64,000 bases of DNA from Escherichia coli (GTDB lineage: Bacteria; Pseudomonadota; Gammaproteobacteria; Enterobacterales; Enterobacteriaceae). The position numbers were made by a program. The DNA lies in NCBI RefSeq assembly GCF_016026235.1, contig NZ_CP065613.1. One strand, given 5' to 3'. Positions 24,001 through 27,000 of this stretch are shown in pieces (position 1 is the first letter of the stretch; each line of letters begins with the position of its first letter).

Positions 24001-27000
24001 CGGGCTGGATTTACGCCGTGCGGAGATTGCCCACGAGCGCGAAGGGCTGCCCTTAACGCCGCTGGCGAACTGTGTGGCAGATACGCAGGGCGGCATCGGC
24101 TATCTGATCCAACAGGCGCTGAATAACCGGCTGGCGCGTCACGGCGAGAAGAAAGCCGTCACCGTGGTGACTCAGGTGGAAGTGGATAAAAACGATCCAG
24201 GTTTTGCCCATCCCACCAAGCCCATTGGTGCATTCTTCAGTGAAAGCCAGCGTGACGAATTACAAAAGGCAAACCCTGACTGGCGTTTTGTTGAAGATGC
24301 CGGACGGGGCTATCGCCGCGTGGTCGCCTCGCCGGAACCGAAACGTATTGTCGAAGCACCTGCCATTAAAGCGCTGATCCAACAAGGTTTTGTCGTAATT
24401 GGCGCGGGCGGCGGTGGAATTCCGGTAGTGCGTACTGAAGCGGGGGATTACCAAAGCGTGGACGCGGTTATCGACAAAGATCTCTCTACCGCGCTGCTGG
24501 CCCGTGAAATTCACGCCGACATTCTGGTGATCACCACCGGCGTCGAAAAAGTCTGTATCCACTTTGGTAAACCCGAGCAGCAGGCGCTGGATCGGGTGGA
24601 TATTGCCACCATGACTCGCTATATGCAGGAAGGACATTTCCCGCCCGGCAGCATGTTGCCAAAAATCATCGCCAGCCTGACGTTCCTGGAACAGGGCGGT
24701 AAAGAAGTGATTATCACCACGCCGGAATGCCTGCCCGCGGCGCTGCGTGGCGAAACGGGCACCCATATTATTAAAACGTAAGGACGTAAGATGAAAGAAA
24801 GCAATAGCCGCCGTGAATTTCTGAGCCAGAGCGGTAAGATGGTCACCGCCGCCGCGCTGTTTGGTACGTCTGTGCCGCTCGCCCATGCGGCAGTCTCTGG
24901 CACAACCCACTGCGACGCGAATAACACCATGAAAATCACTGACCCGCATTACTATCTCGACAACGTGCTGCTGGAAACTGGATTTGACTACGAAAATGGC
25001 GTGGCGGTGCAGACCCGCACGGCGCGCCAGACCGTGGAGATTCAGGACGGCAAAATTGTCGCCCTGCGCGAGAACAAGCAGCATCCGGACGCCACGCTGC
25101 CGCACTATGACGCTGGCGGTAAGCTGATGCTGCCCACCACCCGCGACATGCATATTCATCTCGATAAAACCTTTTACGGCGGGCCGTGGCGCTCGCTTAA
25201 TCGCCCGGCAGGCACCACCATCCAGGATATGATTAAGCTCGAGCAGAAAATGCTGCCGGAGCTGCAACCCTACACCCAGGAACGGGCGGAAAAACTGATC
25301 GATCTATTGCAGTCGAAAGGCACCACCATTGCCCGCAGTCACTGCAATATCGAACCGGTTTCCGGCCTGAAAAATCTGCAAAATTTGCAGGCGGTGCTGG
25401 CGCGACGTCAGGCGGGCTTCGAGTGTGAAATTGTCGCCTTCCCGCAGCACGGTTTGCTGCTGTCGAAATCGGAACCCTTAATGCGTGAAGCAATGCAGGC
25501 GGGCGCGCATTACGTCGGCGGTCTGGACCCGACCAGTGTTGATGGCGCGATGGAAAAATCCCTCGACACCATGTTTCAGATTGCGCTGGACTACGACAAA
25601 GGCGTCGATATTCACCTGCATGAAACCACTCCGGCGGGCGTGGCGGCCATCAATTATATGGTTGAAACGGTAGAGAAAACGCCGCAGCTGAAGGGCAAGC
25701 TGACCATCAGCCACGCCTTCGCGCTGGCAACGCTCAACGAGCAGCAGGTAGATGAACTGGCGCATCGCATGGCGGCGCAACAAATTTCTATCGCCTCGAC
25801 GGTGCCGATTGGCACGCTGCATATGCCGCTCAAACAGTTGCACGACAAAGGCGTAAAAGTGATGACCGGCACCGACAGCGTTATCGACCACTGGTCGCCT
25901 TACGGCCTGGGCGACATGCTGGAAAAAGCCAATCTGTACGCGCAGCTCTATATTCGCCCTAACGAACAGAATTTGTCCCGCTCGCTGTTTTTAGCCACTG
26001 GCGATGTATTGCCGCTGAATGAAAAAGGCGAGCGCGTATGGCCAAAAGCGCAGGATGACGCCAGCTTTGTGCTGGTGGACGCCTCCTGTTCCGCCGAGGC
26101 GGTGGCGCGTATCTCGCCGAGAACGGCAACGTTCCATAAAGGGCAACTGGTGTGGGGGAGTGTGGCAGGTTGATGCGCATTTGAAACGCCTGCAACGGTG
26201 AATAGTAAGAGATTTAAGCCCCAGGGAGTGGGGCGGGAATGGTTTGCTAATGAATGATCCTGAACTTTATAATCTCCCGGCATAATTTCAAGGGGATTAT
26301 TTGAGAGAAATACACAAAAGTGAGTTTTAACAAAGGTATTTATCAGGCCATAAATGTGACCTGCTTCGGATAAAAAAGATTCAGTATCGAAAAACCAATG
26401 ATACTCTTGCTGATGGTTACCAACAGTAATTAAGATGTGATTTGTTTTTCCGTAATCGCAAAAATATTGCCATGACCATAAAAGAAAAATTCTCACAAAA
26501 ATATCCCCATGCTTCCTTTTGTACTTTTGGCGATTCAGCAGCGTTGGCCGATCACCTCGCAACGTTGATTGCGACTGGTGTTAAAACAGCTTCCTGTGGT
26601 TCGCTGGCGGGATGTATTGAAGACAACGCATTTCCGATGATTGGTGAGTATAAGATTGTAGAAAATAGCCGTGGTGAGCCTGTATGTGTTATCAGAGTGA
26701 TTGGCCTGCATTTACTGCGCTTTTCTGATGTCACCGCGGAGCTTGCCCGTAAGGAAGGTGAAGGTGACCTCAGTCTTGAATATTGGCGTAATGAACACCG
26801 TCGTTTTTTCCAGGCAGAAGGAAGCTATTCACCAGAAATGGACGTTATCTTTGAAGAATATGCCCTTATTGACGTTGTGTAGATAACTATTTATCTACAC
26901 GAAATAAGCTCACAAACATAAAATATCGCTAATTTTGTTTATTTTGCTGTTTTTTACGTGATGAATGTCACACTTATTATTGCTGCCCGTTTTGTCCATA

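What the first reader, a model, noticed from the sequence alone, without database searches (positions are those of the whole stretch)
24791..24895. YahJ carries a twin-arginine (Tat) signal peptide while its cluster partners look cytoplasmic
The N-terminus MKESNSRREFLSQSGKMVTAAALFGTSVPLAHAA has the S-R-R-x-F-L Tat motif and an AxA cleavage site. A periplasmic, folded-export amidohydrolase next to cytoplasmic carbamoyl-transfer enzymes suggests a two-compartment pathway, with periplasmic deamination or ring opening of a substrate before uptake.
Basis: seen in the sequence. Interest (0 to 1): 0.35.

Follow-up and report, generated by a model that had tools for sequence, protein, structure and literature searches.

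The report
Known Tat export signal on YahJ
The start of the E. coli yahJ gene does encode a conserved twin-arginine export signal, but this is already published and the signal is even used as a secretion tag. The open question is whether the exported enzyme feeds the cytoplasmic enzymes encoded beside it.

Summary
Window 24791-24889 encodes MKESNSRREFLSQSGKMVTAAALFGTSVPLAHA|A, a textbook Tat signal: an S-R-R-x-F-L motif, a mildly hydrophobic core and an AHA cleavage site. A ribosome-binding site lies 6 nt before the ATG. R7, R8 and F10 are invariant in 43 aligned orthologues, and all 81 related loci keep a start codon upstream of the RR.

It is not new. YahJ is on published Tat-substrate lists, and its signal peptide has been used in reporter fusions and as a secretion tag.

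The mature protein is a cytosine-deaminase/AtzC-like metal amidohydrolase with every catalytic residue aligned to CodA. YahD, E, F, G and I have no export signals.

The "two-compartment pathway" reading is plausible but unproven.
- For: 29 species carry a 516-aa permease between yahG and yahI. A Brevibacillus operon has a cytoplasmic deaminase after the carbamate kinase, where yahJ sits.
- Against: about 40 of 80 species have Tat-YahJ without yahEFGI. In this window the permease site holds only REP repeats (the "yahH" ORF).

Verdict: a real feature that is already known, of low-to-moderate interest.

The parts
24780..24784 (+). Shine-Dalgarno AAGGA, 6 nt upstream of the yahJ ATG. It overlaps the yahI stop codon (TAA, 24779-24781).
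   Evidence: Most of the 81 related loci have an SD-like sequence before the start upstream of the RR.
24791..24889 (+). Twin-arginine signal peptide of YahJ, residues 1-33. Predicted signal peptidase I cleavage after A31-H-A33.
   Evidence: TIGR01409 matches residues 6-33 at 14.6 bits. pLDDT is below 50 in the AF2 model.
24806..24823 (+). Tat consensus motif S-R-R-E-F-L (residues 6-11).
   Evidence: Only strict match in the six-frame translation of the window. R7, R8 and F10 are invariant in 43/43 orthologues.
24839..24874 (+). h-region MVTAAALFGTSV (residues 17-28), mildly hydrophobic.
   Evidence: KD12 of 1.64, within the range of 14 other E. coli Tat signals. The Sec signal of the ABC binding protein in the same window scores 2.28.
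24875..24889 (+). c-region PLAHA with the AxA site. It has no basic 'Sec-avoidance' residue.
   Evidence: This is consistent with the published statement that ssYahJ is recognised by both Tat and Sec (PMC6788121).
24890..24928 (+). Variable, disordered linker (residues 34-46) between the cleavage site and the catalytic domain.
   Evidence: pN/pS 0.73 for residues 34-49. pLDDT below 50. Sequence and length vary among orthologues.
24929..26173 (+). Mature catalytic domain of YahJ (residues 47-460, plus stop). It is a CodA/AtzC-like mononuclear-metal amidohydrolase.
   Evidence: NF005312 scores 717 bits against a 447-bit cut-off, and the profile starts at residue 49. PDB sequence and fold matches are to AtzC-like proteins and CodA. 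H121, H123, Q219, H275, E278, H308 and D362 align to the CodA catalytic residues.
23831..24781 (+). yahI, a carbamate kinase with no signal peptide. It is separated from yahJ by 9 nt.
   Evidence: NF009007 scores 649 bits against a 266-bit cut-off. N-terminus checked.
23514..23786 (.). Array of 2.9 copies of a 93-bp REP/BIME unit filling the yahG-yahI gap. The 'yahH' ORF (23520-23834) is its translation. Other genera have a 516-aa permease gene at this position.
   Evidence: Permease. The y-ome paper says yahH is 'filled with REP23 sites' (PMC11551758).
19683..23501 (+). yahE (AllH-like, 19683-20546), yahF (FdrA/AllF-like, 20536-22083) and yahG (AllG-like, 22083-23501). These are paralogues of the three proteins that Pfam and NCBI name as oxamate carbamoyltransferase subunits. 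They have no signal peptides.
19038..19643 (+). yahD, an ankyrin-repeat protein with no signal peptide. The conserved start gives 201 aa.
18282..18803 (-). yahC, a DUF1097 membrane protein with several hydrophobic segments. It is present only in loci that lack the 516-aa permease.
17258..18190 (-). yahB, a divergently transcribed LysR-type regulator. A LysR gene is also the commonest neighbour of stand-alone yahJ genes.

Best explanation
Residues 1-33 of YahJ are a genuine twin-arginine signal peptide.

Shown here:
- The motif, its reading frame, its start codon and its conservation.
- The mature protein (from about residue 47) is a CodA/AtzC-type single-metal amidohydrolase with all catalytic residues in place.
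- The family outside this clade lacks the extension.

From the literature:
- The peptide drives reporter proteins into the periplasm of E. coli.
- It is said to work through both Tat and Sec.

Inferred:
- YahJ folds in the cytoplasm, probably takes up its metal there, crosses through TatABC and is cleaved after AHA33.
- In the periplasm it hydrolytically deaminates an amino-substituted N-heterocycle of the cytosine or triazine type (about 0.85 that native YahJ is periplasmic).

Further inferred (about 0.55 given export):
- In enteric bacteria with the full operon, the product is taken up by the operon's 516-aa permease. Some sources annotate this protein as a xanthine or AGZA-family permease.
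- The cytoplasmic YahEFG complex, an oxamate-carbamoyltransferase paralogue, then splits a carbamoyl group to carbamoyl phosphate.
- YahI converts carbamoyl phosphate to ATP, CO2 and NH3.

In this window the permease has been replaced by REP repeats. The only operon-linked membrane protein left is YahC (DUF1097). It occurs in exactly those loci that lack the permease, so it may substitute for it.
For: Signal:
- Sequence and SD.
- Unique strict motif in the window.
- RR and F invariant; n-region pN/pS 0.30.
- A start codon upstream of the RR in all 81 related loci.
- Hydrophobicity and length typical of E. coli Tat signals.
- Residues 1-45 are disordered and 47-460 confidently folded, pTM 0.84.

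The extension is specific to one clade. Homologues of at least 48% identity have it (a few more distant ones do too). Most homologues of 45% identity or less start at the domain, and the NF005312 profile starts at residue 49.

Literature:
- TatP prediction and Tat-substrate table (PMC7549933).
- TATFIND-based list (PMC3027627).
- ssYahJ mediates periplasmic translocation and is recognised by Tat and Sec (PMC6788121).

Enzyme type.

Partners cytoplasmic.

Coupling:
- The operon yahD-E-F-G-permease-I-J is conserved in 29 species of several enterobacterial families.
- yahI and yahJ are 9 nt apart.
- The Brevibacillus operon PucR / Ank-AllH-AllF-AllG-NCS1 permease-carbamate kinase-CDA deaminase-516-aa permease has a cytoplasmic deaminase directly after the carbamate kinase, where yahJ sits.
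- A signal-less homologue (P0130) sits behind a Bmp-type ABC importer, and the window's own CodA follows the CodB permease. Both are import-then-deaminate arrangements.
Against: - TIGR01409 scores 14.6 bits, below its 16.7-bit cut-off. Pfam's TAT_signal model gave no hit.
- Export of native full-length YahJ, its metal and its substrate have never been shown. No such evidence was found in the library searched.
- The signal has no Sec-avoidance residue and is reported as Tat/Sec promiscuous, so the route of the native protein is not settled.
- About 40 of 80 species have Tat-YahJ with no yahEFGI nearby, usually next to a LysR gene only.
- Five loci have only yahB-yahD-yahJ.
- The Janthinobacterium operon and an E. 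coli IncFII plasmid copy have the cytoplasmic module and the permease but no YahJ.
- No ring-opening enzyme is encoded between a deaminated heterocycle and a carbamoyl donor for YahEFG.
- In this window the permease is absent.
Confidence: 0.5

Rival explanations
1. YahJ is a self-contained periplasmic deaminase, used for nitrogen scavenging or for detoxifying an extracellular amino-heterocycle. It is exported by Tat as above, but its chemistry does not feed YahEFG/YahI. The shared operon in enterics would reflect shared regulation by the LysR protein YahB, or an operon fusion.
For: - About 40 of 80 species (Xenorhabdus, Photorhabdus, Pantoea, Rahnella, Rhizobiales, Paracoccus, Halomonas) have Tat-YahJ without yahEFGI. 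The only recurrent neighbour is a LysR gene, in 21 of 40 loci.
- yahB-yahD-yahJ mini-loci exist in Cedecea, Erwinia persicina and an Enterobacter species.
- The cytoplasmic module exists without YahJ in Janthinobacterium and on E. coli plasmids.
Against: - The gene order, with yahJ last and close behind yahI, is conserved across Enterobacteriaceae, Serratia, Providencia, Budvicia and Zophobihabitans.
- The analogous Brevibacillus operon also has a deaminase after the carbamate kinase.
Confidence: 0.35
2. The signal on YahJ also carries, or is served by, the ankyrin protein YahD. YahD either hitchhikes to the periplasm bound to folded YahJ, or acts as a cytoplasmic export or metal-loading chaperone. 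On this reading not all 'cytoplasmic-looking' partners stay in the cytoplasm.
For: - yahD-family genes sit next to yahJ even where yahEFGI are absent (L027, L028, L030, L034, L035).
- In three alpha-proteobacterial-type loci (L002, L052, L053) the YahD-like gene directly follows yahJ. It carries its own Sec-type signal peptide, so there it is predicted to be periplasmic like YahJ.
- Tat is known to export pre-assembled complexes in which only one subunit has a signal (general knowledge: HybOC, DmsAB, PaoABC).
Against: - YahD homologues of 54-66% identity are also found with AllH/F/G-like genes and no YahJ, in Brevibacillus and Janthinobacterium. That points to a role with the cytoplasmic module.
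- An AF2 model of a YahJ-linker-YahD fusion gave pTM 0.40 and degraded the YahJ domain, so it offers no support. The test was weak: 19 sequences and no interface read-out.
Confidence: 0.1
3. The N-terminal extension is not used as annotated. Translation starts downstream (M17 or M47), giving a cytoplasmic enzyme or a mixture of exported and cytoplasmic isoforms.
For: - M47 lies exactly where signal-less family members start.
- A Met is present at that position in 39 of 81 loci.
Against: - No SD-like sequence precedes M47 in the window, and only 8 of 39 loci with that Met have even a 4-nt SD core.
- Codons 2-16 are strongly constrained and the RR is invariant.
- A good SD precedes M1.
- The peptide starting at M1 exports reporters.
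Confidence: 0.04
4. The Tat-like motif is a chance occurrence in a cytoplasmic protein.
For: The curated HMM score is just below its threshold.
Against: - The motif is invariant across 80 species.
- The strict motif occurs once in the window.
- The full n/h/c architecture and the AxA site are present.
- Export of reporter fusions is published.
Confidence: 0.01

Closest known systems
E. coli Tat substrates with cleavable twin-arginine signals (SufI, CueO, AmiA/AmiC, MdoD, FhuD, YcbK, EfeB)
   Same: The S-R-R-x-F-L motif, a signal length of about 30 residues, a mildly hydrophobic core and an AxA cleavage site. YahJ is itself listed with them in published tables (PMC7549933, PMC3027627). Like several of them it needs no complex redox cofactor.
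   Different: It is the only amidohydrolase-superfamily member in the published Tat-substrate table seen here (PMC7549933). Its native export, substrate and metal have not been studied. The signal is reported to be usable by Sec as well (PMC6788121).
Cytosine deaminase CodA with cytosine permease CodB (also in this window, 43845-46377)
   Same: The same fold and catalytic set (HxH, Gln, HxxE, His, Asp) align residue for residue, at 26% identity over 323 residues. Both are predicted to deaminate an amino-heterocycle.
   Different: CodA has no signal peptide and works after import by CodB. YahJ is predicted to work before any import. The YahJ substrate is unknown.
AtzC (N-isopropylammelide isopropylaminohydrolase) and the AtzC-like protein 6nbo of Burkholderia multivorans
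   Same: These are the closest solved structures by sequence (E = 4e-44) and by fold (Foldseek E = 2e-32, TM-score 0.87 on the target).
   Different: Identity is only 21-29%. The aligned chains (390-423 residues) begin at the catalytic domain and carry no counterpart of the YahJ signal and linker (residues 1-46). The genomic context also differs.
AllFGH oxamate carbamoyltransferase + AllK carbamate kinase of the E. coli allantoin pathway
   Same: YahE, F and G match the AllH, FdrA/AllF and AllG families, and YahI is a carbamate kinase. The expected logic is the same: phosphorolysis of a carbamoyl compound, then ATP from carbamoyl phosphate.
   Different: As recalled from general knowledge (not tested here), the all cluster has no ankyrin protein and no Tat-exported enzyme, and its upstream steps (allantoinase and the rest) are cytoplasmic. 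The substrate of YahEFG is unknown.
Periplasmic pre-processing before uptake (for example UshA, CpdB and AphA acting on nucleotides before nucleoside uptake)
   Different: By general knowledge those enzymes are Sec-exported phosphatases or nucleotidases. They are not co-operonic with the cytoplasmic steps.

Membership tests
Twin-arginine (Tat) signal peptide | Consensus S/T-R-R-x-F-L-K at the n/h boundary, with invariant twin arginines | tested here: met
   The motif is S-R-R-E-F-L-S (a K follows at position 16). RR and F are invariant in 43/43 orthologues.
Twin-arginine (Tat) signal peptide | Tripartite n/h/c structure with a weakly hydrophobic h-region and an AxA signal peptidase I site | tested here: met
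   KD12 of 1.64 against 1.70 +/- 0.19 for 14 E. coli Tat signals. AHA at residues 31-33.
Twin-arginine (Tat) signal peptide | Score above the curated cut-off of TIGR01409 (TAT_signal_seq) or Pfam TAT_signal | tested here: not met
   TIGR01409 scores 14.6 bits against a 16.7-bit cut-off. The match covers the whole profile, at residues 6-33. No Pfam hit.
Twin-arginine (Tat) signal peptide | The translation start lies upstream of the RR motif | tested here: met
   SD AAGGA 6 nt before the ATG. All 81 related loci have an in-frame start 3-10 codons before the RR. pN/pS is 0.30 for codons 2-16.
Twin-arginine (Tat) signal peptide | Tat-dependent export shown experimentally | not testable with these tools
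   [quoted passage not shown] The primary paper could not be retrieved. No data on the native protein were found.
Amidohydrolase superfamily, CodA/AtzC-like mononuclear deaminases | Family HMM score above the curated cut-off | tested here: met
   NF005312 scores 717.5 bits against 447. Pfam Amidohydro_3 scores 68.9 against 29.7.
Amidohydrolase superfamily, CodA/AtzC-like mononuclear deaminases | Metal and catalytic residues: HxH, Gln, HxxE, His, Asp | tested here: met
   H121, H123, Q219, H275, H308 and D362 are invariant in the 25-sequence alignment. E278 is conserved in the closer orthologues but replaced in several distant members. All seven, E278 included, align to the CodA residues.
Amidohydrolase superfamily, CodA/AtzC-like mononuclear deaminases | (beta/alpha)8 barrel fold with an N/C-terminal beta-sandwich | tested here: met
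   AF2 pLDDT of about 95 over residues 50-460. The top Foldseek hits are 6nbo, AtzC and CodA.
Amidohydrolase superfamily, CodA/AtzC-like mononuclear deaminases | Deaminase activity on a defined substrate | not testable with these tools
   No substrate is known. The 2024 y-ome paper lists yahJ as uncharacterised.
AllFGH-type carbamoyltransferase + carbamate kinase module (YahE, F, G, I) | AllH, FdrA/AllF and AllG domains plus a carbamate kinase in one operon | tested here: met
   PF11392, NF004760 (493 bits against 433), PF06545 and NF009007 (649 bits against 266).
Bacterial lipoprotein signal (considered because of Cys41) | Lipobox [LVI][ASTVI][GAS]C at the end of the signal | tested here: not met
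   The Cys lies 8 residues after the AxA site, in ...AHAAVSGTTHC. It has no lipobox and is not conserved.

The most novel reading that the evidence does not exclude
The yah locus encodes a catabolic route split across the inner membrane, for an as yet unknown amino-N-heterocycle.
- A Tat-exported deaminase (YahJ) acts in the periplasm.
- A previously uncharacterised 516-aa permease takes the product in. In Escherichia, the DUF1097 protein YahC may replace it.
- A cytoplasmic YahEFG carbamoyltransferase and the YahI carbamate kinase convert it to ATP.
- The ankyrin protein YahD is a YahJ partner. It reaches the periplasm on its own Sec signal in alpha-proteobacteria and by hitchhiking on YahJ's Tat signal in enterics.
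Probability: 0.1. Interest if true: 0.55.

Novelty: already known. Interest (0 to 1): 0.2.

Why it matters
The Tat signal itself adds nothing new. YahJ is a textbook entry on E. coli Tat-substrate lists, and its signal is used as a biotechnology secretion tag.

What still matters is the function. yahC, E, G, I and J are listed as uncharacterised in a 2024 survey of the E. coli y-ome. A yahJ deletion was mildly outcompeted in a mouse ExPEC infection (competitive index 0.70, p = 0.02; PMC7549933).

The comparative data gathered here make the function question testable:
- Use a species that has kept the permease, such as Citrobacter, rather than E. coli K-12-like strains where the operon looks degraded.
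- Look for amino-heterocycle substrates.
- Test whether the periplasmic and cytoplasmic halves form one pathway.

Tried and rejected
- Curated Tat HMMs. TIGR01409 was just below its cut-off and Pfam gave no hit. I did not treat this as evidence against the signal, given the conservation.
- The primary reporter study (Tullman-Ercek 2007). It could not be retrieved by DOI or PMC id. I relied on the summary in PMC6788121.
- The 516-aa membrane protein. It gave no Pfam, NCBIfam or PDB sequence hit. Its 'xanthine/AGZA permease' label comes only from names that source databases give to homologues.
- AF2 of a YahJ-(G4S)6-YahD fusion with a 19-row paired alignment. pTM was 0.40 and the YahJ domain itself degraded. 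The result is uninformative and I do not count it as evidence against a complex.
- An internal start at M47, or at M17. No conserved SD was found, so I rejected it as the main start.
- A lipoprotein reading of Cys41. There is no lipobox.
- Promoter and terminator scan of 18700-26600. Hits were no more frequent than in shuffled sequence.
- Antisense ORFs overlapping the site (24260-25267 and 24619-24939, minus strand). I took them to be shadow ORFs of the yahI/yahJ coding strand and did not pursue them.
- Contexts of signal-less homologues. P0133 and P0136 were uninformative.
- The ABC transporter island downstream of yahJ, considered as the 'missing importer'. It is absent next to yahJ in every other genus and variable within E. 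coli, so I judged it unrelated.
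Full report
**What is at the coordinates**

The window is Escherichia chromosome. It is 99.9% identical to E. coli FDAARGOS_943 and about 97% identical to most E. coli over yahI-yahJ.

The gene order is yahB(-), yahC(-), yahD, yahE, yahF, yahG, a REP-filled gap, yahI, yahJ. Downstream lie an ASCH gene, an ABC transporter and yahK.

The ORF at 24791-26173 translates to a 460-aa protein.

**Is the Tat-like N-terminus real?**

Yes.

- The start codon is preceded by AAGGA at a 6-nt spacing. That sequence overlaps the yahI stop codon.
- The peptide has the canonical parts: an n-region with S-R-R-E-F-L, a 12-residue uncharged core, and PLAHA ending in an AxA site.
- Its length (33 residues), RR position and core hydrophobicity (1.64) fall inside the range of 14 other E. 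coli Tat signals (1.70 +/- 0.19). They are below the Sec signal of the ABC binding protein in the same window (2.28).
- The strict motif [ST]RRxF[LI] occurs once in the six-frame translation of all 64 kb, at this site.
- Every full-length orthologue in the 120 best database hits carries the signal, with a single R-H variant.
- In 43 codon-aligned orthologues R7, R8 and F10 are invariant. Codons 2-16 have pN/pS 0.30. The values are 0.54 for the hydrophobic core, 0.73 for the linker and 0.18 for the enzyme domain.
- All 81 other related loci examined (80 species genomes plus one metagenome contig) keep an in-frame start 3-10 codons upstream of the RR. Most have an SD-like sequence there.

So the condition 'true start downstream of the RR' is not met.

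A Met at position 47 coincides with the start of signal-less relatives. It occurs in only 39 of 81 loci and has no conserved SD.

The one negative result is that TIGR01409 scores 14.6 bits against a 16.7-bit cut-off.

**What the protein is**

The NCBIfam profile NF005312 matches at 717 bits, and only from residue 49 onward. An AlphaFold model is disordered for residues 1-45 and confident from 47 to 460, with pTM 0.84.

The closest solved structures, by sequence and by fold, are an AtzC-like protein (6nbo), AtzC and cytosine deaminase.

Aligning YahJ with the window's own CodA (45079-46377) puts these YahJ residues onto the CodA metal and catalytic residues:
- H121 and H123 (the HxH pair)
- Q219
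- H275 and E278 (the HxxE pair)
- H308
- D362

Hydrolytic deamination of an amino-heterocycle is therefore more likely than ring opening. This is an inference.

The signal is specific to one clade. Homologues of at least 48% identity carry it, and a few more distant ones do too. Most homologues of 45% identity or less start directly at the domain.

**Is it known?**

Yes.

- YahJ, with this exact signal sequence, is in a TatP-derived table of E. coli Tat substrates. A yahJ deletion had a competitive index of 0.70 (p = 0.02) in mice (PMC7549933).
- It is in a TATFIND-based list (PMC3027627).
- ssYahJ is used as a secretion tag. [quoted passage not shown]

I could not retrieve the 2007 paper itself. 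The absence of a basic residue in the c-region fits the reported Sec compatibility.

I found no data on the native full-length protein. The 2024 y-ome survey still lists yahC, E, G, I and J as uncharacterised, and yahH as 'filled with REP23 sites'.

**Are the partners cytoplasmic?**

YahD, E, F, G and I show no RR motif, no hydrophobic N-terminus and no membrane-spanning segment.
- YahE, F and G belong to the AllH, FdrA/AllF and AllG families. Pfam and NCBI name these as oxamate carbamoyltransferase subunits.
- YahI is a carbamate kinase.

Nucleotide-dependent chemistry also places them in the cytoplasm (general knowledge).

**Does the context support a two-compartment pathway?**

I fetched 80 species loci encoding YahJ relatives of at least 55% identity and mapped the yah genes onto them.

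*Full operon with a permease.* Twenty-nine species have yahB(-) yahD yahE yahF yahG X yahI yahJ. They include Citrobacter, Enterobacter, Lelliottia, Leclercia, Yokenella, Serratia, Buttiauxella, Atlantibacter, Providencia, Budvicia and Zophobihabitans.
- X is a 516-aa polytopic membrane protein.
- It hits no Pfam, NCBIfam or PDB entry.
- Its homologues are named xanthine permease or AGZA-family permease by several sources.

*Operon without the permease.* Five species (E. albertii, two Pseudocitrobacter, Kluyvera, Raoultella planticola) and the window lack X. They have yahC (DUF1097, several hydrophobic segments) instead.
- The two membrane proteins are perfectly mutually exclusive, 29 to 5.
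- The five are related, so few independent events are involved.
- In the window the X position holds 2.9 copies of a 93-bp REP unit, which produces the spurious yahH ORF.
- Only 142 of 5,426 complete E. coli genomes have X, mostly on plasmids.

*Mini-loci and stand-alone genes.* Five loci have only yahB-yahD-yahJ. About 40 species (Xenorhabdus, Photorhabdus, Pantoea, Rahnella, Rhizobiales, Paracoccus, Halomonas and others) have Tat-YahJ with none of yahEFGI within 10 kb. The only recurrent neighbour there is a LysR gene (21 of 40 loci).

*The cytoplasmic module elsewhere.*
- In Brevibacillus the order is PucR, Ank, AllH, AllF, AllG, an NCS1 (allantoin-permease-like) transporter, carbamate kinase, a 152-aa CDA-fold deaminase, then X.
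- In Janthinobacterium it is Ank, AllH, AllF, AllG, X, carbamate kinase, LysR, with no deaminase.

*Import-then-deaminate controls.* A signal-less YahJ relative (P0130) follows a Bmp-type ABC importer. CodA in this window follows the CodB permease.

**Reading of this evidence**

A deaminase and one or two nucleobase-type permeases recur in the carbamoyltransferase/carbamate-kinase operon. In the Gram-positive operon the deaminase is a cytoplasmic CDA-fold protein. In enterics it is a Tat-exported amidohydrolase.

YahJ is equally common on its own, so its periplasmic function does not need the cytoplasmic module. The coupling is inferred from operon conservation alone. No gene for a ring-opening step is evident.

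My estimates:
- about 0.85 that native YahJ is exported;
- about 0.55 that, in full-operon species, it feeds YahEFG/YahI.

In this particular window the pathway, if it exists, has lost its dedicated permease. YahC is the only candidate replacement.

**The ankyrin protein**

YahD-family proteins align over their full length.
- The window's YahD is 54% identical to the Brevibacillus protein and 66% identical to the Janthinobacterium protein.
- It is 39-41% identical to three alpha-proteobacterial-type copies.

Those three copies lie immediately downstream of yahJ and carry their own Sec-type signal peptides. That raises the possibility that enteric YahD, which has no signal, travels with YahJ through Tat or chaperones it.

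An AF2 model of a YahJ-linker-YahD fusion was uninformative, with pTM 0.40. YahD also occurs with the cytoplasmic module where YahJ is absent. I keep this as a low-probability reading (about 0.1).

**Verdict**

The comparative results add testable detail to an open y-ome question, but they do not change the category. They are:
- the permease lost from E. coli;
- the yahC/permease exclusivity;
- the stand-alone Tat-YahJ genes;
- the cytoplasmic deaminase at the equivalent position in a Firmicute;
- the signal-bearing YahD relatives.

Noticed in passing
window 23514-23786 (the 'yahH' ORF is 23520-23834): The yahG-yahI gap holds 2.9 tandem copies of a 93-bp REP/BIME unit, and the 104-aa 'yahH' ORF is simply its translation. 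In 29 other species this position holds a 516-aa membrane protein gene (L006:7461-9011). That protein has no Pfam, NCBIfam or PDB match. Sources name its homologues xanthine or AGZA permease.
   Followed up: yes
window 18282-18803 (-), compared with L003-L081: yahC (DUF1097) and the 516-aa permease are perfectly mutually exclusive among full yah operons. Twenty-nine species have the permease only. Five species and the window have yahC only. This could be a transporter replacement, but the yahC-bearing genera are related, so few independent events are involved.
   Followed up: partly
L002:2937-3611, L052:3462-4139, L053:11468-12151: YahD-family ankyrin proteins lie directly downstream of yahJ in three alpha-proteobacterial-type loci. 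They carry Sec-type signal peptides, whereas enterobacterial YahD has none. YahD also accompanies AllH/F/G-like genes without YahJ in Brevibacillus (L083) and Janthinobacterium (L084).
   Followed up: partly
L003 and L004 (Pseudocitrobacter) against window 17258-26173: The similarity is mosaic. YahF, G, I and J are 95-99% identical in protein sequence to the window, but YahE is 55-58%, YahD 70-71% and YahC 70-71%. This suggests a recent recombination or transfer between Escherichia and Pseudocitrobacter, with a breakpoint near the yahE/yahF junction.
   Followed up: no
L085 (E. coli IncFII plasmid p24A16CRGN010_A, 41096-49529): A second, plasmid-borne copy of the cluster circulates in E. coli: LysR, ankyrin, AllH-like, FdrA-like, YlbE-like, the 516-aa permease and a carbamate kinase. 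Transposase fragments follow where yahJ would be. The permease is found in 142 of 5,426 genomes, at 106 plasmid places.
   Followed up: partly
window 26442-31569: An ASCH-domain gene and a four-gene ABC transporter lie between yahJ and yahK. The binding protein is annotated as autoinducer-2-like and has a Sec-type signal. The segment is present at 80% coverage or more in only 2,211 of 5,426 E. coli genomes and is absent next to yahJ in other genera. It is a variable island, probably unrelated to the yah operon.
   Followed up: partly
P0003, P0004, P0006, P0008 (database proteins); P0012-P0036: Some database entries are YahI-YahJ fusions of 677-780 aa, which would bury the Tat signal inside the protein. 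Most are single-member metagenome clusters, so they may be sequencing errors. Many E. coli entries are C-terminally truncated YahJ (400-434 aa). FDAARGOS_943 has yahG as a pseudogene and an IS5 between yahC and yahD, whereas the window has both regions intact. Together with the lost permease, this hints that the operon is decaying in parts of E. coli.
   Followed up: no
window 43845-46377: codB-codA lie in the same window. CodA is a signal-less paralogue of YahJ (26% identity, all catalytic residues aligned) placed behind its permease. It is a convenient internal contrast: import then deaminate, against export then deaminate.
   Followed up: yes
window 19032-19643: The longest yahD ORF is 203 aa, but 36 of 42 loci with paired yahD and yahJ give a 201-aa protein starting at the Met that corresponds to M3 (19038). 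That is probably the true start.
   Followed up: partly
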